From a virus: 42,338 nt of DNA. Positions within the stretch are counted from its first letter, which is position 1, and each line of letters starts with the position of its first letter. The position numbers and the translations under genes are program-made. Of the stretch, positions 50 through 22,287 are shown piece by piece. The stretch lies in UHGV virus genome UHGV-0127092; one strand, given 5' to 3'. A model generated the notes under the pieces. It was not told where the DNA came from and searched no databases. It saw only the letters and a program-made list of their open reading frames with translations.

Positions 50-598
50 TCAGCTAGCTGGAAACTTTTTATACAGAGTTGAGAGCCCTACTCCATACGT
101 TTTTGATACGCTTTGTCGTGATTCACCGGTTGCCATCCGCTCCCCCATTTCCCGCCATTGCTCATCCGTGAACTTAGGCCTGCGACCACCAACTCGCCAT
201 TTTGCCCTGGCTACGGCCAGCCCTGCTAAGGTACGTTCGCTATTAAGATCAGATTCATATTGTGCTGCGGAAAGGATGTTACGAAAGTTATAGCGGCCGC
301 TGGCTGTTTTGAGATCCACGCCATCGGTAATACTGCGGAAGTTGATACCCTTTTCCTGTAACTGCTGGAACATCAACAGCGCATGCAGAACGTTGCGGCC
401 TATCCTGTCCAGCTTCCACACCACCAGTGTATCGCCCGCATTCAGAGTCCGCAGAAGCTTTTTGAGCGCTGGCCGGTTCGCTACCGTCCCGCTCATTTTT
501 TCTTCAAAAACCTGTTCACATCCTGCGCGTTCGAGTGCTTGGCGCTGGAGATCTGTATTTTGGTCATTTGTTGACACCCTTACATAGCCAATTTGCAT
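50..598 (-). CDS. Serine recombinase, DNA invertase of the Hin/Gin/Pin/Cin family
   Basis: N-terminal MQIGYVRVSTNDQ catalytic-serine motif, LVVWKLDRIGR, C-terminal HTH (GLSTLYKKF), about 180 aa. Start moved from track 607 (GTG) to ATG at about 598, preceded by GGGTGA. Confidence 0.9.
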   Translation of the reverse strand: MQIGYVRVSTNDQNTDLQRQALERAGCEQVFEEKMSGTVANRPALKKLLRTLNAGDTLVVWKLDRIGRNVLHALLMFQQLQEKGINFRSITDGVDLKTASGRYNFRNILSAAQYESDLNSERTLAGLAVARAKWRVGGRRPKFTDEQWREMGERMATGESRQSVSKTYGVGLSTLYKKFPAS

Positions 599-603
599 AT
601 TTT

Positions 604-906
604 TCACCCAGTTATTTCTGCAAAAAAATCAGGTGAAGTTATCGGCCAGGCCGCTCGAGAGCAATCTATAAAACGTCCGTTTGGATTGAACATCAGCCAC
701 GTCTTGTCATCGCTGTGGTCTGTCGAAGCGTCACGGAAGCAACGGGAATAGCGTGCAATCCACTGATTCGCCTCTGCATTAGAAAGATGCCAGTTCACTT
801 TCTCCAGCTCTCTGACGAAATCAGACGTTCTCACAGACCTGCGGCCTGACCTTTCATGCACTATTGCTGCCCGGAAGGCTAGCTCCATATCTGAACGACG
901 CGGCAT
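604..906 (-). CDS. Hypothetical protein, candidate SOS-regulated gene translationally coupled to the invertase
   Basis: ORF on minus strand; stop TGA lies 5 nt upstream of the invertase ATG; LexA-box-like palindrome 19-38 nt upstream of the proposed ATG (MPRRSDMELAF...). Track start 948 would place the palindrome inside the ORF. No family recognised. Confidence 0.5.
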   Translation of the reverse strand: MPRRSDMELAFRAAIVHERSGRRSVRTSDFVRELEKVNWHLSNAEANQWIARYSRCFRDASTDHSDDKTWLMFNPNGRFIDCSRAAWPITSPDFFAEITG

Positions 907-924
907 AAAGTTACTCACAACAAA

Positions 925-944
925 TACTGTATATACATACAGTA
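925..944. promoter_or_regulatory. Candidate LexA operator (SOS box) TACTGTATATACATACAGTA
   Basis: CTG-N10-CAG palindrome with AT-rich spacer; one mismatch to the E. coli LexA consensus TACTGTATATATATACAGTA; sits just upstream of ORF 604-906. Confidence 0.6.
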
Positions 945-1266
945 TCATTCACTCCGGCGTTTGTTCAAGATGGGGTGAGCAAAAAGCCATCTAAGCGGGC
1001 TGTTTGCTTGTTATAGAGAAGGTAAGTCGCTCAACCAACTACAAGTTGCATCCTATTTTTAACTTGAGGTTTTACTAAAACCACGACCGACTAATCAGTT
1101 ATCTACTAAATCTTTTTTCCTTAGCGTATTACAAACAGTGTAATAAATTAAAAACGTATAGAGAAAAGCAGAAGCTTTTCACTGATATGCCCTTCTAATT
1201 CAAGCTGCCGCAGCCCGCTTTCACTCTCAATGCAGCTGCGGCATTACTCTTGAAGTTGATTTGCTA

Positions 1267-2508
1267 TCACTTTTCGCCAAGCAATTTAATCAATGTGCGA
1301 AGTTCTTCAATCTCCCTTTGTTGATACTGAACAACTCCGAGAAGGTCCATTACTATGGGGTTAGTATCTACAGATGGGCGATCCCGGTACACTGGTTTAT
1401 AAGGTCGACCAACTTCATCAAGCTCACTGTCGCTGTATTCCGCCTCTGGGTCAATTTCACGGTTATGCTTTATGTATTGAGGCGCAACAAGCTCAGTTTC
1501 TTCCGCAATGATACCGAAACGGATCCTGTGCAGATCATCGTCAATATATTTAAAGTTAACCATCTTAAGCGACATTATTCGATTAAGAGCTTCTTTTAGA
1601 TCGGCTTCTGCAATGTCCTCTTTGTACTGCAGCCCAGATGTCCCCTGCAATGCAAGCGTTCCACTAGTATTAGGGAAATATACGGTCGTTGATCCAGTAG
1701 TAAGAGCGTCACCTCGTCTCCAAACATAAAGAGTACCCTCCTTTTGTTCCAGGCCTATTCGTTTGCCGATCACATCTCCAAGATTGTAGTCTCGTAAAAC
1801 CAAACTGGGATAATTCGCTGATGTAGTGAATCCTTCGTTAATTCCATATGCCGTTATTTTACTTGTAAAAGTTTTTAGTCCAGTTATTTCTTCTGTATTA
1901 TCTATCCCTACAGCTTTAATATTCTTTCTGGCATCAGTATCATTTTTGGCTCCAGTCCCTCCCATGCTTATTGGAATTAGCCCGGAACTATCAACTAATT
2001 CAAGATTTTTGCGAGCCTCAGCCGCTGTCTTTGCGCCGGTCCCCCCCTGGGCAATACTCAGTGCTGTAGTTAACCCTTTCAGCTCTGTGATATCGCTATT
2101 TGCCCCTTTGCGGGCGAGACCACCAATGGCCGGAATGCTGAGGCTGGTGCCGTTGATTGTCACAGTGACCAACTGGTTCGCTGAGGTGCTGGCGAACGTC
2201 TCCCATGCTCCAATGTTCTCGTCATACTCGTTAATGAGCTGCGACATACTTTGCGCCAGGCCATCGACGGAGAGGCTGTCGGTAACGAGGATGCCGTACT
2301 TCTGTCCGCTCAGTGCCGGTGACGCAGCTGGGGTAACGGTTAACGATGTGCCGCTGTTGATAGCGGTAATCTGAAACATCTGGACCGGGTTAGAGAGCAC
2401 AATAATGGTCTGGCTCACGCGAATCTGGCTGGCCGGTGCCGTCCAGTTTGTGCCCGTCCCGGTGGCGGTATTTCCATTAATGGCGATGGTGCCGGTGTTA
2501 TAAAGCAT
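1267..2508 (-). CDS. Side tail fiber protein with C-terminal intramolecular chaperone (peptidase S74-like) domain
   Basis: Repeated GGTGAK...ARKN motifs typical of tail fibers; C-terminal MSLKMVNFKYIDDD...GIIAEETELVAPQYIK...LLGVVQYQQREIEELRTLI resembles the endosialidase-chaperone domain. ATG at about 2508 preceded by GGAGA. Confidence 0.8.
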   Translation of the reverse strand: MLYNTGTIAINGNTATGTGTNWTAPASQIRVSQTIIVLSNPVQMFQITAINSGTSLTVTPAASPALSGQKYGILVTDSLSVDGLAQSMSQLINEYDENIGAWETFASTSANQLVTVTINGTSLSIPAIGGLARKGANSDITELKGLTTALSIAQGGTGAKTAAEARKNLELVDSSGLIPISMGGTGAKNDTDARKNIKAVGIDNTEEITGLKTFTSKITAYGINEGFTTSANYPSLVLRDYNLGDVIGKRIGLEQKEGTLYVWRRGDALTTGSTTVYFPNTSGTLALQGTSGLQYKEDIAEADLKEALNRIMSLKMVNFKYIDDDLHRIRFGIIAEETELVAPQYIKHNREIDPEAEYSDSELDEVGRPYKPVYRDRPSVDTNPIVMDLLGVVQYQQREIEELRTLIKLLGEK

Positions 2509-2523
2509 ATTTTCTCCAGGCAA

Positions 2524-2547
2524 TAAAAAAACCCCGCCGGAGCGAGG
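2524..2547 (-). terminator. Rho-independent terminator (minus strand) after the lipoprotein gene
   Basis: Minus-strand RNA CCUCGC-UCCG-GCGGGG followed by a U7 tract; read directly from sequence. Confidence 0.6.
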
Positions 2548-2568
2548 TTTATGTTTAAGCGTAGTGGG

Positions 2569-2802
2569 TTATTTGCAGGTTGTTTCGGTAAATGTATTCG
2601 CACTTACCCAGCGCCAGCTGAAAGGATATCCAGCCCGGTACTGCGTCTGGTTGTTTTGTTTACGCACACCGTAAATCTGAACCGTAGTTTCCTGACCGCC
2701 AACGATTGCAGTGCCGCTGCAAACTGGTTCCTGTTTCTCAATTACGCCAGCGCATCCTGTAAGCATGACAGCGCCTGCCATGCAGATAATCAGTTTTCTC
2801 AT
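2569..2802 (-). CDS. Small lipoprotein, possible Cor-like superinfection-exclusion protein (moron)
   Basis: 77 aa, signal peptide with lipobox LTGC, sits between the J-associated genes and the tail fiber gene with its own terminator. Cor assignment rests on size and context only. Confidence 0.6.
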   Translation of the reverse strand: MRKLIICMAGAVMLTGCAGVIEKQEPVCSGTAIVGGQETTVQIYGVRKQNNQTQYRAGYPFSWRWVSANTFTETTCK

Positions 2803-2913
2803 TTTGATAGTATCCAGAGGAATTCAGTATCTTAGACGATACCAATACAATTCTGGTGGGTATAATTGATTGGATAGATCAATATTATGTTATTGATCGC
2901 TAAAAACGATCAA

Positions 2914-3588
2914 TCAATCATAGGCCGCTGTATTTATGGCGGTTAATGAAATGCCAGTATTCGTTCCCCCTCCAGGTGAACCTGCCCCAGTGGAGGTCCC
3001 CCCTGCGTTTATCCTCGTATTGGCCCCGTCAAACCTGCATGAAGAATAAGCATTTATCGTGTAGATAGTCGGAGGCTGGGTTGAATTATTCACAATGATG
3101 GTCTGACCCAACTGAGCAGGTGCAACGGCCCATGACCCGCTCAGCGTCTGGTCAATATTTATCCCGCCGTTTGCACCAGGCGTGCCAACCGTCTGCAGGT
3201 CTGATAGCACACGGGACTCATTAGTTAACACAAGCTTTCCGCTCGCATCCCATATTGCCAAACCCCATTTCGGTAATATCTGCGGGAATATGGCAAAAAC
3301 GTACGCCGTTAAAGTGAAACTTTGGTTGTAGGGATTAACACCAGCAACATACACATTACCGCCGTTCCTGTAAGACATAACCGGAGTGGGCTGTGCTGTA
3401 TTGGTGGTTTTGATAAAAACCATCACTGGGTAATCAGCGTTTAAAGCGATATTTTGAGCAACCTGCTGAGAACTGCCATTCGCGGATGAATTGAAGGTAT
3501 ACTTCCCGTAAAGACAGAAAGGCGTTGATTGTGGCGTTACAAAGGGATTCCCGTTATCCATTAATATCATCGCGCCAAATTCGGCCAT
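2914..3588 (-). CDS. Hypothetical tail-associated protein (Gly/Thr/Asn-rich)
   Basis: 224-aa ORF translationally coupled (1-nt overlap) to the upstream 100-aa ORF, downstream of J. Confidence 0.5.
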   Translation of the reverse strand: MAEFGAMILMDNGNPFVTPQSTPFCLYGKYTFNSSANGSSQQVAQNIALNADYPVMVFIKTTNTAQPTPVMSYRNGGNVYVAGVNPYNQSFTLTAYVFAIFPQILPKWGLAIWDASGKLVLTNESRVLSDLQTVGTPGANGGINIDQTLSGSWAVAPAQLGQTIIVNNSTQPPTIYTINAYSSCRFDGANTRINAGGTSTGAGSPGGGTNTGISLTAINTAAYD

Positions 3589-21780: not shown

Positions 21781-21936
21781 AATCGAAAACTCCTATTAAT
21801 CATCGGCTTGGGGACCCCAAAAAAAGTTTTCTAACCTGCGGCGATGTGAAGAAAGGCTAGGCGGCGGTCCTTTTGGCGCCAGGTTACAGGGATTTGACCT
21901 CCCCCTCCCCTCCACATCCGTTGATGGTAATCATTA

Positions 21937-22287
21937 TCATTTGAAGCGTTCACGCCCTGTTTTCGAGCGGTGGCAAGGCCAGCACAGGCTTTCAAGGTTC
22001 GAATCATCATCGGTACCCCCATGAGCCTTAGCCTTGATATGGTCAACGGTTGTGGCCGCGACAGCGCGTCCAGTACGCAGGCAGTTCTGACACAGATGAT
22101 TATCACGCTTCAGGATGCGCGCGCGCTTGATATCCCACTTGCCGCCGTAACCACGCTCATGGCGGCTCTTACCCTGCTGGTGCTGTTGCCAGCCCTCATT
22201 TCGATGCTGCTCACAGTAGCCTGAACGGTCCGTAGTCGTACCGGGACAACCTCTCTTGCGACATGCGCGAGGGATTAACGCTGGCAT
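21937..22287 (-). CDS. HNH endonuclease
   Basis: DHIKAKAHGGTDDDSNLESLCWPCH HNH motif; adjacent to the terminase genes. Confidence 0.85.
   Translation of the reverse strand: MPALIPRACRKRGCPGTTTDRSGYCEQHRNEGWQQHQQGKSRHERGYGGKWDIKRARILKRDNHLCQNCLRTGRAVAATTVDHIKAKAHGGTDDDSNLESLCWPCHRSKTGRERFK

What the first reader, a model, noticed from the sequence alone, without database searches (positions are those of the whole stretch)
2524..2913. Cor-like lipoprotein moron between J-associated genes and the tail fiber, with a GATC-rich palindrome in its upstream region
A 77-aa lipoprotein (lipobox LTGC) has its own intrinsic terminator downstream. Its upstream region holds three GATC sites within about 35 bp (about 2877, 2895, 2908) and a perfect inverted repeat GATCAAT-N8-ATTGATC (about 2877-2898), suggesting Dam-methylation-sensitive or regulator-bound control. 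Small outer-membrane lipoproteins at this position in phi80/N15-type phages exclude superinfecting phages by blocking their receptor.
Basis: partly seen in the sequence, partly recalled or inferred. Interest (0 to 1): 0.5.

Follow-up and report, generated by a model that had tools for sequence, protein, structure and literature searches.

The report
Cor exclusion gene with methylation-sensitive switch
The small lipoprotein gene is the well-known phage phi80 Cor gene, which blocks the FhuA receptor against other phages. The GATC cluster in front of it is a strongly conserved control element of the same build as known Dam/OxyR epigenetic switches, and I found no paper that describes this for cor.

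Summary
The 77-aa ORF (2569-2802, minus strand) is 100% identical to phage phi80 Cor. It passes NCBIfam NF047972 'phage exclusion lipoprotein Cor' with 140.9 bits against a cutoff of 31. It lies between the gp22/gp23-like genes downstream of J and the tail fibre, and it has its own terminator. The gene is already known.

The GATC triple is not significant by count: 110 of 300 simulated windows have one. Its conservation is what matters. In 54 of 62 distinct cor upstream regions, from E. coli, Enterobacter, Pseudocitrobacter, Buttiauxella and Rahnella, all three GATCs keep the same register while the spacers vary.

The 39-bp block 2873-2911 is the best match to the OxyR binding consensus in the whole window. 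Its GATC spacing (18+13) equals that of the Mu mom operator, and agn43 has 19+13. Its arms ATTGATCG-N7-CGATCAAT are identical to the OxyR(A) half-site of P22 gtr.

The same cassette, in fixed register with a -35 and an extended -10, precedes at least 38 other distinct contexts in lambdoid and P2-like phages.

My best reading is that cor transcription is set by competition between Dam methylation and OxyR. The OxyR role, the sign of regulation and any bistability are inferred, not shown. No paper I found links cor to Dam or OxyR.

The parts
2569..2802 (-). cor coding sequence: 77 aa plus stop, the precursor of an outer-membrane lipoprotein.
   Evidence: 100% identical to phi80 Cor. PHROG_1119 E = 7e-37. 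NCBIfam NF047972 140.9 bits against a cutoff of 31.
2752..2802 (-). Signal peptide (aa 1-16) and the lipidated Cys17. The lipobox LTGC occupies 2752-2763. Ala at position +2 implies sorting to the outer membrane.
   Evidence: Read directly from the sequence. The phi80 record annotates the same signal peptide and acylated Cys. The sorting rule is established knowledge.
2522..2550 (-). Intrinsic terminator of cor: stem AAACCTCGC/GCGGGGTTT, loop TCCG, then a T-run.
   Evidence: Found by the scan. RNA fold -17.6 kcal/mol, z = -2.84. Annotated as a terminator in phi80, mEp213 and mEp390.
2836..2844 (-). Predicted extended -10 element TGgTATCGT. The predicted transcription start is near 2828.
   Evidence: It matches the position annotated in the phi80 record. 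TTGnTAnnGT is conserved in all cor groups, with per-site diversity 0.12 against 0.35 in the promoter spacer. The same register is seen in non-cor cassettes. The start site has not been determined experimentally.
2860..2865 (-). Predicted weak -35 element TTATAC, 18 nt upstream of the -10 hexamer and 11 nt downstream of GATC box 3.
   Evidence: Per-site diversity is 0.098. A -35-like hexamer at the same 11-nt distance from box 3 is visible in most of the 72 distinct cassettes I read. The phi80 record places its -35 one base away.
2873..2911 (.). OxyR-type operator. It consists of two 17-bp half-sites 22 bp apart, GATCGTTTTTAGCGATC (2895-2911) and GATAGATCAATATTATG (2873-2889). It contains all three GATCs and lies about 45 to 83 nt upstream of the predicted start.
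   Evidence: It matches the Toledano consensus at 16 of 20 positions and is the unique top of 84,604 positions; the next best is 13. With the 17-bp motif the half-site scores 15/17 and the tetramer 28/34, both unique tops. Its architecture aligns with the agn43 and mom operators.
2908..2911 (.). GATC 1, the site farthest from the promoter, in box ATTGATCG (sense strand).
   Evidence: Located. Conserved in register in 54 of 62 distinct cor upstream regions. Box diversity 0.067.
2895..2898 (.). GATC 2, in box CGATCAAT, which is shared by both palindromes.
   Evidence: Located. It is the most conserved block, with diversity 0.004. It is retained even in the HK022-type variants.
2877..2880 (.). 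GATC 3, the site nearest the promoter, in box ATTGATCT.
   Evidence: Located. Box diversity 0.018.
2892..2914 (.). Palindrome ATTGATCG-N7-CGATCAAT. Its last base is the first base of the stop codon of the upstream gp23-like gene.
   Evidence: Read from the sequence. Its arms are identical to the P22 gtr OxyR(A) half-site ATTGATCGGTAACAACGATCAAT (Broadbent et al. 2010, PMC2909390).
2877..2898 (.).
   Evidence: Read from the sequence. The arms are kept in all but a few of the 60 relatives (HK022 type and L031 each alter one arm), while 20 different N8 spacers occur among them.
2914..3588 (-). Upstream neighbour, a gp23-like gene of 224 aa whose stop codon abuts the operator.
   Evidence: PHROG_425 E = 1e-80. 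It corresponds to phi80 gene 23.
1267..2523 (-). Downstream neighbour, the tail fibre with a C-terminal Peptidase_S74 chaperone domain.
   Evidence: Pfam PF13884 E = 5.8e-9 and PHROG_1980 E = 1e-73.

Best explanation
This is the phi80-type cor moron, a self-contained transcription unit inserted between the gp22/gp23-like genes downstream of J and the tail-fibre gene.

Shown by sequence identity plus literature: its product is a 77-aa prelipoprotein. It is cleaved and lipidated at Cys17 and sent to the outer membrane. There, according to published work on phi80, N15 and mEp167 Cor, it inactivates the FhuA ferrichrome transporter, so FhuA-dependent phages cannot infect.

Inferred: transcription starts from a weak-35, TG-extended-10 sigma-70 promoter. 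Immediately upstream of that promoter lies a 39-bp operator that contains three Dam sites.

I propose that the operator binds the host LysR-type regulator OxyR only when its GATCs are unmethylated, and that bound OxyR in turn shields them from Dam. This is how agn43, Mu mom, P22 gtr and opvAB work. After each replication, competition between Dam and OxyR would set the transcription state of cor. That could give heritable ON and OFF lineages of lysogens, trading phage exclusion against the loss of ferrichrome uptake.

The sign of regulation is not determined. I lean slightly towards OxyR as an activator, for three reasons. The site abuts a poor -35. The four quarter-sites sit on adjacent helical turns. 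The HK022-type alleles have lost two GATCs by changes that leave the OxyR consensus untouched, yet they keep an intact cor gene.

My confidence by step is: Cor identity about 0.99; the operator is a selected, protein-bound element about 0.85; OxyR is the binding protein about 0.6; bistable phase variation about 0.4.
For: Cor identity rests. Published function is summarised in PMC11436027 and bioRxiv 10.64898/2026.03.26.714494.

Operator conservation was measured on loci retrieved by protein similarity, so the set is not biased towards the DNA motif. All three GATCs keep their register in 54 of 62 distinct upstream regions. Per-site diversity is 0.004-0.067 in the three boxes, 0.20-0.40 in the N7 and N8 spacers, and 0.33-0.35 in the 5'UTR and promoter spacer. 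Eleven different N7 and 20 different N8 spacers occur.

OxyR likeness is supported in several ways:
- The site matches ATAGnTnnnAnCTAT-N7-ATAGnTnnnAnCTAT at 16 of 20 positions and is the only site above 13 in the window. The validated sites score 14 (agn43), 13 (mom) and 13 (gtr).
- With the motif GATAGBYHWDRVCTATC (quoted in PMC5908139), the half-site at 2895-2911 scores 15/17 and the tetramer 28/34. Both are unique tops. agn43 scores 26, mom 22, and the cor relatives 22-29.
- Within N7, position 2 is always T or C and position 6 always A or G, in 60 of 60 cor cassettes and 38 of 38 non-cor cassettes. These are exactly the Y and R of that motif, and the search pattern did not impose them.

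The architecture matches validated operators. The GATC spacing of 18+13 is identical to Mu mom, and agn43 has 19+13. The arms ATTGATCG-N7-CGATCAAT are identical to the P22 gtr OxyR(A) half-site, where OxyR binding is abolished by Dam methylation.

The module is portable. The same 38-nt cassette, then 11 nt, a -35, 17-18 nt and a -10, precedes divergent cor genes, other small membrane proteins in the cor slot, and genes of P2-like phages. This points to a host factor rather than a phage-specific one.
Against: There is no experimental evidence for OxyR binding, for undermethylation or for bistability at cor.

The raw GATC cluster is not statistically unusual.

The second OxyR half-site is weak outside this allele. 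The third quarter-site (ATAA here) is TGAT in phi80 and is not conserved across cassettes, and the fourth is mostly CnnT. What is invariant is the 7-mer ATTGATC/GATCAAT, and the OxyR consensus does not require its ATT flank.

The promoter and the transcription start are predictions. The mEp213 record places a -10 elsewhere.

Classical work describes phi80 and N15 lysogens as converted to T1 and phi80 resistance at the population level. This statement is from my own knowledge. It limits how large an OFF fraction could be.
Confidence: 0.6

Rival explanations
1. The three GATC boxes form a real, selected operator, but the reader is not OxyR. One possibility is another host factor that recognises ATTGATC/GATCAAT, for example a different LysR-type protein such as HdfR, which reads GATC clusters at the Salmonella std operon. 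Another is that Dam or SeqA acts directly on promoter activity through the methylation state.
For: The invariant unit is the 7-mer ATTGATC/GATCAAT in alternating orientation, not the ATAG/CTAT quarter-sites. The third and fourth OxyR quarter-sites are poorly conserved. The inverted repeat GATCAAT-N8-ATTGATC is kept in all but a few of the 60 relatives. Transcription factors other than OxyR, namely Fur, HdfR, Lrp and CRP, are known to generate GATC methylation patterns (PMC7708049).
Against: The ATTGATCG-N7-CGATCAAT arms are identical to a half-site shown to bind OxyR in a methylation-sensitive way in P22 gtr. The N7 spacer follows the Y and R constraints of the OxyR motif. The GATC spacing equals that of two validated OxyR operators. 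The GATC spacings of 13 and 18 bp are not in helical phase; I take in-phase spacing to be what SeqA prefers, which is my own knowledge and was not tested here.
Confidence: 0.22
2. The GATC cluster has no regulatory role. It would be a chance cluster, or a conserved 'boundary' sequence kept because it mediates recombination and moron shuffling between phages, and cor would be expressed constitutively from its own promoter.
For: A GATC triple within 35 bp or less arises in 37% of simulated windows. The cassette sits exactly at module junctions in mosaic phages.
Against: Box positions are 5 to 100 times less variable than the spacers between them and than the 5'UTR, and this holds across five host genera. 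Recombination-driven conservation would preserve the spacers too. The N7 spacer shows symmetric Y/R constraints. The fixed register to the -35 and -10 elements across unrelated downstream genes indicates a promoter-coupled function.
Confidence: 0.08
3. The element is a Fur or iron-responsive operator, which would be logical because Cor blocks an iron-siderophore receptor. GATC methylation would overlap Fur binding, as in the EAEC sci1 type VI secretion switch.
For: There is a functional rationale, and a precedent exists for a Fur/Dam switch (cited in PMC7708049). The region is AT-rich.
Against: The best match to the 19-bp Fur box in the cor upstream region is 11 of 19. More than 300 positions in the window score as well or better. 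The 62 relatives score 10-13. The best-matching stretch falls in the variable N8 spacer.
Confidence: 0.03

Closest known systems
Cor of phages phi80, N15, mEp167 and HK022 (phage exclusion lipoprotein Cor, NCBIfam NF047972, PHROG_1119)
   Same: The protein is identical to phi80 Cor. It has the same lipobox, the same genomic slot between gp23 and the tail fibre, and the same downstream terminator.
   Different: Nothing differs at the protein level. The surrounding phage is a different mosaic: no phage record covers more than about 42% of either half of the window.
agn43 (flu) Dam/OxyR phase-variation operator of E. coli
   Same: Both have three GATCs inside a single OxyR site. The spacing is 19+13 in agn43 and 18+13 here. 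They share the strings GATCAAT and ATyGATCG-N7-CGATC. Methylation blocks the OxyR repressor at agn43 (PMC2909390).
   Different: The agn43 operator lies downstream of the promoter, where OxyR acts as a repressor, and is in the opposite orientation relative to the gene. The cor operator lies upstream and abuts the -35. There is a one-base difference in one spacer.
Phage Mu mom upstream region (Dam/OxyR control)
   Same: The GATC spacing GATC-N14-GATC-N9-GATC is identical. Both operators lie upstream of the promoter of a phage accessory gene. Control of mom by Dam and OxyR is stated in PMC2909390.
   Different: The orientation relative to the gene is inverted. The flanks differ: GATCGAAT and AGATCGAT in mom against GATCAAT in cor. 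mom also needs the phage C activator. Whether mom phase-varies is not known.
P22 and Salmonella gtr operon Dam/OxyR switch
   Same: Both control a phage lysogenic-conversion, anti-superinfection function. The half-site arms ATTGATCG-N7-CGATCAAT are identical. OxyR binding at gtr is shown to be abolished by methylation.
   Different: gtr has four GATCs in two pairs and three half-sites (A, B, C) spaced 32 bp apart, giving alternative activating (AB) and repressing (BC) occupancy. cor has three GATCs in one 39-bp site with half-sites 22 bp apart.
T5 Llp lipoprotein
   Same: Both are small outer-membrane lipoproteins that inactivate FhuA. Predicted Cor structures share the Llp architecture (bioRxiv 10.64898/2026.03.26.714494).
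   Different: Sequence identity is only 18-25%, and Cor gave no PDB sequence match at E up to 10. Llp belongs to a lytic phage and is expressed early. I did not examine whether it has a GATC cassette.

Membership tests
Cor phage-exclusion lipoprotein | Sequence membership in the curated family model. | tested here: met
   NCBIfam NF047972 (equivalog) 140.9 bits against a cutoff of 31. PHROG_1119 E = 7e-37. 100% identity to phi80 Cor.
Cor phage-exclusion lipoprotein | Signal peptidase II signal peptide with a lipobox and an outer-membrane sorting residue. | tested here: met
   The sequence MRKLIICMAGAVMLTG|C has Ala at +2, read directly from the sequence. The phi80 record carries the same annotation.
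Cor phage-exclusion lipoprotein | Autonomous moron downstream of J and its accessory genes, with its own terminator. | tested here: met
   Gene order. Terminator. Relatives are syntenic.
Cor phage-exclusion lipoprotein | Excludes FhuA-dependent phages and impairs ferrichrome uptake. | not testable with these tools
   Known for the identical phi80 protein from the literature. It needs plating assays.
Dam/OxyR epigenetic operator (agn43, mom, gtr, opvAB class) | At least two GATC sites lie inside the regulator binding site. | tested here: met
   Three GATCs lie inside the 39-bp site 2873-2911.
Dam/OxyR epigenetic operator (agn43, mom, gtr, opvAB class) | Match to the OxyR consensus, with four quarter-sites at 11-bp intervals or two 17-bp half-sites. 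| tested here: met
   16 of 20 positions and 28 of 34, both unique tops in the window and both equal to or above the validated agn43, mom and gtr sites. One caveat: the second half-site is weak in many relatives.
Dam/OxyR epigenetic operator (agn43, mom, gtr, opvAB class) | The site overlaps or abuts the promoter of the regulated gene. | tested here: inconclusive
   The site ends 7 nt upstream of the predicted -35. The register is conserved in most of the 72 distinct cassettes I read. The promoter and start site are predictions only.
Dam/OxyR epigenetic operator (agn43, mom, gtr, opvAB class) | The GATCs are conserved among homologous loci. | tested here: met
   54 of 62 distinct protein-anchored upstream regions keep all three. 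Diversity profile.
Dam/OxyR epigenetic operator (agn43, mom, gtr, opvAB class) | OxyR binds unmethylated DNA but not methylated DNA, and the GATCs are undermethylated in one lineage. | not testable with these tools
   This needs EMSA or footprinting and methylation assays, or SMRT/Nanopore 6mA data from lysogens.
Dam/OxyR epigenetic operator (agn43, mom, gtr, opvAB class) | Heritable ON/OFF expression that depends on dam and oxyR. | not testable with these tools
   This needs single-cell reporter assays.
pap-type Lrp/Dam switch | Two GATC boxes about 102 bp apart, together with a PapI-like co-regulator. | tested here: not met
   There are only three GATCs within 35 bp, and the next ones are more than 1 kb away. 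The pap signature is described in PMC2909390.
Fur/Dam switch | A Fur box overlapping the GATC sites. | tested here: not met
   The best Fur-box match is 11 of 19, which is unremarkable.
T5 Llp family | Detectable sequence similarity to Llp. | tested here: not met
   No PDB chain matched at E up to 10. The literature reports 18-25% identity with a similar predicted fold. I did not compare folds here.

The most novel reading that the evidence does not exclude
The cor upstream element is one instance of a portable, roughly 80-bp 'epigenetic promoter cassette'. It consists of ATTGATCG-N7-CGATCAAT-N8-ATTGATC, then 11 nt, a -35 and an extended -10. Temperate enterobacterial phages, both lambdoid and P2-like, would place it in front of many different morons. 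Through competition between Dam and OxyR it would make prophage accessory functions, including receptor blockade by Cor, phase-variable or responsive to oxidative stress. For Cor this would mean that lysogen populations hedge between phage exclusion and ferrichrome iron uptake.
Probability: 0.35. Interest if true: 0.75.

Novelty: new member of a known kind. Interest (0 to 1): 0.5.

Why it matters
Cor itself is textbook material. Its regulation, however, has been treated as that of a simple constitutive moron. If the conserved three-GATC operator really is a Dam/OxyR switch, superinfection exclusion through FhuA would be heterogeneous within a lysogen population. That would add a trade-off between phage resistance and iron uptake to the short list of Dam/OxyR phase-variable traits (Ag43, gtr, opvAB).

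It would also explain why some natural alleles, such as the HK022 type, have lost GATCs. Because the same cassette precedes many unrelated, mostly uncharacterised small membrane proteins in lambdoid and P2-like phages, it could serve as a sequence signature for finding epigenetically switched prophage genes. It would also matter in practice for phage typing and phage therapy with FhuA-dependent phages.

Tried and rejected
- Pfam gave no hit for Cor or for the gp22/gp23-like proteins. PHROGs and NCBIfam were needed.
- The significance of the GATC cluster by count was tested and rejected. An earlier dinucleotide-shuffle script timed out.
- The sigma-70 scan proposed a promoter inside the GATC cluster (TTGATC-18-CATAAT, 2913-2884). 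I rejected it because its -10 falls in the variable N8 spacer.
- A third OxyR half-site 22 or 32 bp further on either side, as in gtr, was looked for by eye and not found.
- The Fur box was tested and rejected.
- A phage-encoded Dam was considered. The phi80 damL pseudogene has no homologue in the window.
- P2 fun(Z), another moron that blocks T5, has no cassette.
- A PDB sequence search with Cor found nothing. I did not run structure prediction because a 2026 preprint already compares Cor and Llp models.
- Literature searches for cor with OxyR, Dam or GATC found nothing. Wallecha et al. 2002 (PMC135096) is not held.
- 'Cor' hits in several papers were word-start artefacts.
- The column-conservation run on motif-selected cassettes was circular. 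I replaced it with the protein-anchored set.
Full report
1. THE OBSERVATION

- The minus-strand ORF 2569-2802 encodes 77 aa, MRKLIICMAGAVMLTGCAGV..., with a positively charged n-region, a hydrophobic core and the lipobox L-T-G-C.
- An intrinsic terminator follows it. The stem is AAACCTCGC/GCGGGGTTT, the loop is TCCG, and a T-run follows, at 2550-2522. As RNA it folds at -17.6 kcal/mol, z = -2.84 against shuffles.
- GATC occurs at 2877, 2895 and 2908, and nowhere else between 1768 and 4699.
- GATCAAT-N8-ATTGATC at 2877-2898 is a perfect inverted repeat.
- I add a second palindrome, ATTGATCG-N7-CGATCAAT at 2892-2914, which shares the middle box. Its last base is the first base of the stop codon of the upstream gene. 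The 111-bp intergenic region is therefore fully occupied.

By count alone the cluster is not remarkable. It is the tightest GATC triple in the window, but 110 of 300 third-order Markov simulations of the window contain a triple within 35 bp or less.

2. WHAT THE GENE IS

The protein is 100% identical to Cor of phage phi80 and to Cor of mEp043, mEp213 and HK225. It matches PHROG_1119 'Cor superinfection exclusion protein' with E = 7e-37. It matches the NCBIfam equivalog NF047972 'phage exclusion lipoprotein Cor' with 140.9 bits against a cutoff of 31.

The DNA of 2402-3100 is 99% identical to HK140 and mEp237 and 94% identical to phi80. In all of these the gene is annotated as cor, flanked by a gp23-like gene and the tail fibre, with a terminator. 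The locus occurs, at 86-100% identity, in 45 of 5,426 complete E. coli genomes, always on the chromosome.

The window as a whole is a mosaic lambdoid prophage or phage. No single phage record covers more than about 42% of either half.

The literature attributes FhuA inactivation and exclusion of FhuA-dependent phages to Cor of phi80, N15 and mEp167 (PMC11436027; bioRxiv 10.64898/2026.03.26.714494). Cor has no sequence match in the PDB. The 2026 preprint reports that predicted Cor structures share the architecture of T5 Llp at 18-25% identity. The gene is therefore already known.

3. THE GATC CLUSTER IS A CONSERVED OPERATOR

I retrieved cor loci by protein similarity, so the set is not selected for the DNA motif. 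It comprises 12 loci from GTDB species genomes, 80 from IMG/VR and several GenBank phages.

These give 62 distinct 135-nt upstream regions. Of these, 54 carry all three GATCs in the same register: -109, -96 and -78 from the ATG, shifted as a block by 1-4 nt in a minority (for example -106, -93 and -75 in most Rahnella loci). The hosts include Enterobacter, Pseudocitrobacter, Buttiauxella and Rahnella, and in Rahnella Cor is only 61% identical.

In a MAFFT alignment of these sequences, mean pairwise diversity per site is as follows:
- Box 1: 0.067
- N7 spacer: 0.20
- Box 2: 0.004
- N8 spacer: 0.395
- Box 3: 0.018
- Predicted -35: 0.098
- Promoter spacer: 0.35
- Predicted -10: 0.12
- 5'UTR: 0.33

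Eleven different N7 spacers and 20 different N8 spacers occur between boxes that hardly vary. This is the footprint of selection on protein-contacted boxes and on a promoter, not of recent common descent.

The lytic T1 cor gene and the Stx2-86 cor-like gene lack the element.

Natural variants exist:
- HK022-type alleles have lost GATC 1 and GATC 3 (GATTG and TTATC).
- Two IMG/VR alleles have each lost one site.
- One allele has a 45-bp deletion that removes box 3 and the -35.

4. WHAT KIND OF OPERATOR IT IS

I fetched three experimentally established Dam/OxyR operators and compared them.
- agn43 has GATC spacings of 19+13 and shares the strings CGATCAAT and ATCGATCG-N7-CGATC.
- Mu mom has spacings of 18+13, identical to cor. 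Among the loci examined, GATC-N14-GATC-N9-GATC occurs only in mom and in cor.
- The P22 gtr OxyR(A) half-site is ATTGATCGGTAACAACGATCAAT. Its 8-bp arms are identical to the cor palindrome. Broadbent et al. showed that OxyR binds there and that Dam methylation abolishes binding (PMC2909390; the sites are also listed in PMC7708049).

Against the classical consensus ATAGnTnnnAnCTAT-N7-ATAGnTnnnAnCTAT, the site 2874-2910 matches at 16 of 20 specified positions. It is the only one of 84,604 positions in the window above 13. agn43 scores 14, mom 13 and gtr 13.

Against the 17-bp motif GATAGBYHWDRVCTATC (quoted in PMC5908139), the half-site 2895-2911 scores 15/17. The two-half-site model at 2873-2911 scores 28/34. 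Both are unique tops in the window. The cor relatives score 22-29, agn43 26 and mom 22.

An independent detail supports the same assignment. Within N7, position 2 is only T or C and position 6 only A or G, in 60 of 60 cor cassettes and 38 of 38 non-cor cassettes. These are the Y and R of the OxyR motif, and my search pattern did not impose them.

There are weaknesses. The third quarter-site is ATAA here but TGAT in phi80, and it is not conserved. The fourth is mostly CnnT. The invariant unit is the 7-mer ATTGATC/GATCAAT, and the consensus does not require its ATT flank.

A Fur box is not present: the best match is 11 of 19. The pap-type layout of two boxes about 102 bp apart is absent. The window has no phi80-type dam gene, so the methylase would be host Dam.

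5. PROMOTER GEOMETRY AND PORTABILITY

The phi80 GenBank record predicts a cor promoter whose elements map to a -35 at 2861-2866, an extended -10 at 2836-2844 and a start at 2828. The mEp213 record places a -10 elsewhere. Both are predictions.

Conservation favours the phi80 version. TTGnTAnnGT is present in every group.

Of these, 65 are cor loci, one is gtrA, and 54 are other contexts. Most of the 54 again carry the full three-GATC layout.

Across 72 distinct cassettes the 38-nt length of the three-box layout is constant, although the search pattern allowed 37-39. In most of them, read by eye, it is followed 11 nt later by a -35-like hexamer (TTATAC, TTATCA, TTTGAA or TTATAA), and 17-18 nt after that by a -10 that is often TG-extended.

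The downstream genes include the following:
- Divergent cor genes.
- Unrelated 99-100-aa membrane proteins in the same slot before the tail fibre.
- In P2-like phages, between the tail-fibre assembly gene and the tail-sheath gene, a 47-aa protein, in one case followed by UmuD/UmuC-like genes.
- A 40-aa transmembrane peptide.
- Cys-rich membrane proteins of 76-84 aa.
- A Ner-like repressor.

Most of these have no PHROG family. Use of the cassette by phages with different regulatory circuits argues for a host-encoded reader.

In the window the operator spans about -83 to -45 relative to the predicted start, immediately upstream of a poor -35.

6. MECHANISM

Shown or established: Cor is a lipoprotein moron with its own terminator. 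The identical protein blocks FhuA.

Inferred: a sigma-70 promoter with a weak -35 and an extended -10 is governed by an operator whose occupancy by OxyR and whose methylation by Dam exclude each other, as at agn43, mom, gtr and opvAB. After replication, the outcome of that competition would fix cor in one of two states. Because Cor abolishes ferrichrome uptake, a bistable switch would hedge between phage exclusion and iron acquisition.

The sign of regulation is open. I lean towards activation, for three reasons:
- The site abuts a weak -35, as a class I activator site would.
- The quarter-sites lie on four adjacent helical turns.
- The HK022-type alleles removed two GATCs by substitutions that are neutral for the OxyR consensus, yet they retain an intact and widespread cor gene.

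Repression, as at agn43 and mom, is not excluded. A link to oxidative stress, in which OxyR limits iron import, is speculation.

7. COMPARISON, NOVELTY AND VERDICT

The gene is a member of the Cor family: all testable defining features are met. The operator meets the sequence-level criteria of the Dam/OxyR class. The biochemical and phenotypic criteria cannot be tested here.

Full-text searches found no paper that links cor to OxyR, Dam or GATC. Older subscription literature is not covered.

I therefore file the finding as a known gene with a probable new member of a known kind of epigenetic operator. The added observation is that the operator is a portable cassette used by many phage morons. 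Interest is 0.5: ordinary for Cor, moderately surprising and directly testable for the regulation.

Noticed in passing
IMG/VR loci L107-L226 (for example L115, L108, L155, L160, L112, L113, L195, L219): The three-GATC cassette ATTGATCG-N7-CGATCAAT-N8-ATTGATC, followed by a -35 and a -10 in fixed register, precedes many genes other than cor. These include small membrane proteins in the cor slot, a 47-aa protein (with UmuD/UmuC-like genes in L160), a 40-aa transmembrane peptide in another family of contigs (L115 type), Cys-rich membrane proteins and a Ner-like repressor. The 47-aa protein lies between the tail-fibre assembly and tail-sheath genes of P2-like phages. In the L112 type the cassette lies about 244 nt before the tail-sheath gene with no obvious ORF in between.
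   Followed up: partly
L015, L084, L085, L089 (HK022, HK75, HK542 and mEpX1 type); L031; L033; L092: Natural operator variants exist. The HK022-type alleles have lost GATC 1 and GATC 3 by single substitutions that leave the OxyR consensus unchanged. Two alleles have each lost one GATC, and one of these changes creates a perfect GATAG. One allele has a 45-bp deletion that places the palindrome next to the -10. These are candidate 'locked' switches.
   Followed up: partly
window 50-607 (minus strand), 604-948 (minus strand), inverted repeat 91-107 / 1147-1163: A Hin/Gin-type serine invertase (Resolvase plus HTH_7 domains) and a 114-aa ORF of unknown function (PHROG_3893) lie just beyond the tail-fibre gene. 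A 17-nt imperfect inverted repeat contains ATCAAAAACG, which resembles a hix or gix half-site. One arm lies inside the 3' end of the invertase gene. There may be an invertible segment, but its layout is atypical and the window ends at base 1.
   Followed up: partly
L227 16111-16996 (phi80 damL); window: phi80 carries a frameshifted Dam-methylase pseudogene (damL), annotated as possibly restorable by slippage. The window phage has no homologue of it (blastn and tblastx both negative). A phage-borne Dam next to a GATC-controlled cor gene in phi80 could be relevant to the switch.
   Followed up: partly
L001 1286-1634 (phi80 FN582354 record): The phi80 record annotates a second moron, gene 25, on the opposite strand inside the 5' part of the tail-fibre gene. 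It has its own promoter, and its terminator overlaps the cor terminator, which suggests a bidirectional terminator. I did not check whether the window keeps this ORF.
   Followed up: no
window 21920-21944: This is the best Fur-box-like sequence in the window: 16 of 19 on the plus strand and 15 of 19 on the minus strand. It lies at the 3' end of an HNH-endonuclease-like ORF (21937-22287, minus strand), just upstream of what is probably the small terminase gene. It is probably coincidental or related to cos.
   Followed up: no
L007 (contig JAYRLR010000035.1, labelled as a Mucilaginibacter MAG): A 1.2-kb contig in a Bacteroidota MAG carries an enterobacterial-type cor gene (75% identity) with the full three-GATC cassette. 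This is most likely a binning contaminant.
   Followed up: no
L018 (Aeromonas phage pAEv1818), L019 (Erwinia phage Midgardsormr38): More distant cor loci have different GATC layouts. pAEv1818 keeps ATTGATCG-N7-CGATCG at -76 and -63 and has a third GATC at -108. Midgardsormr38 has GATC-N5-GATC. The cor ORF of pAEv1818 is not annotated in its record.
   Followed up: no
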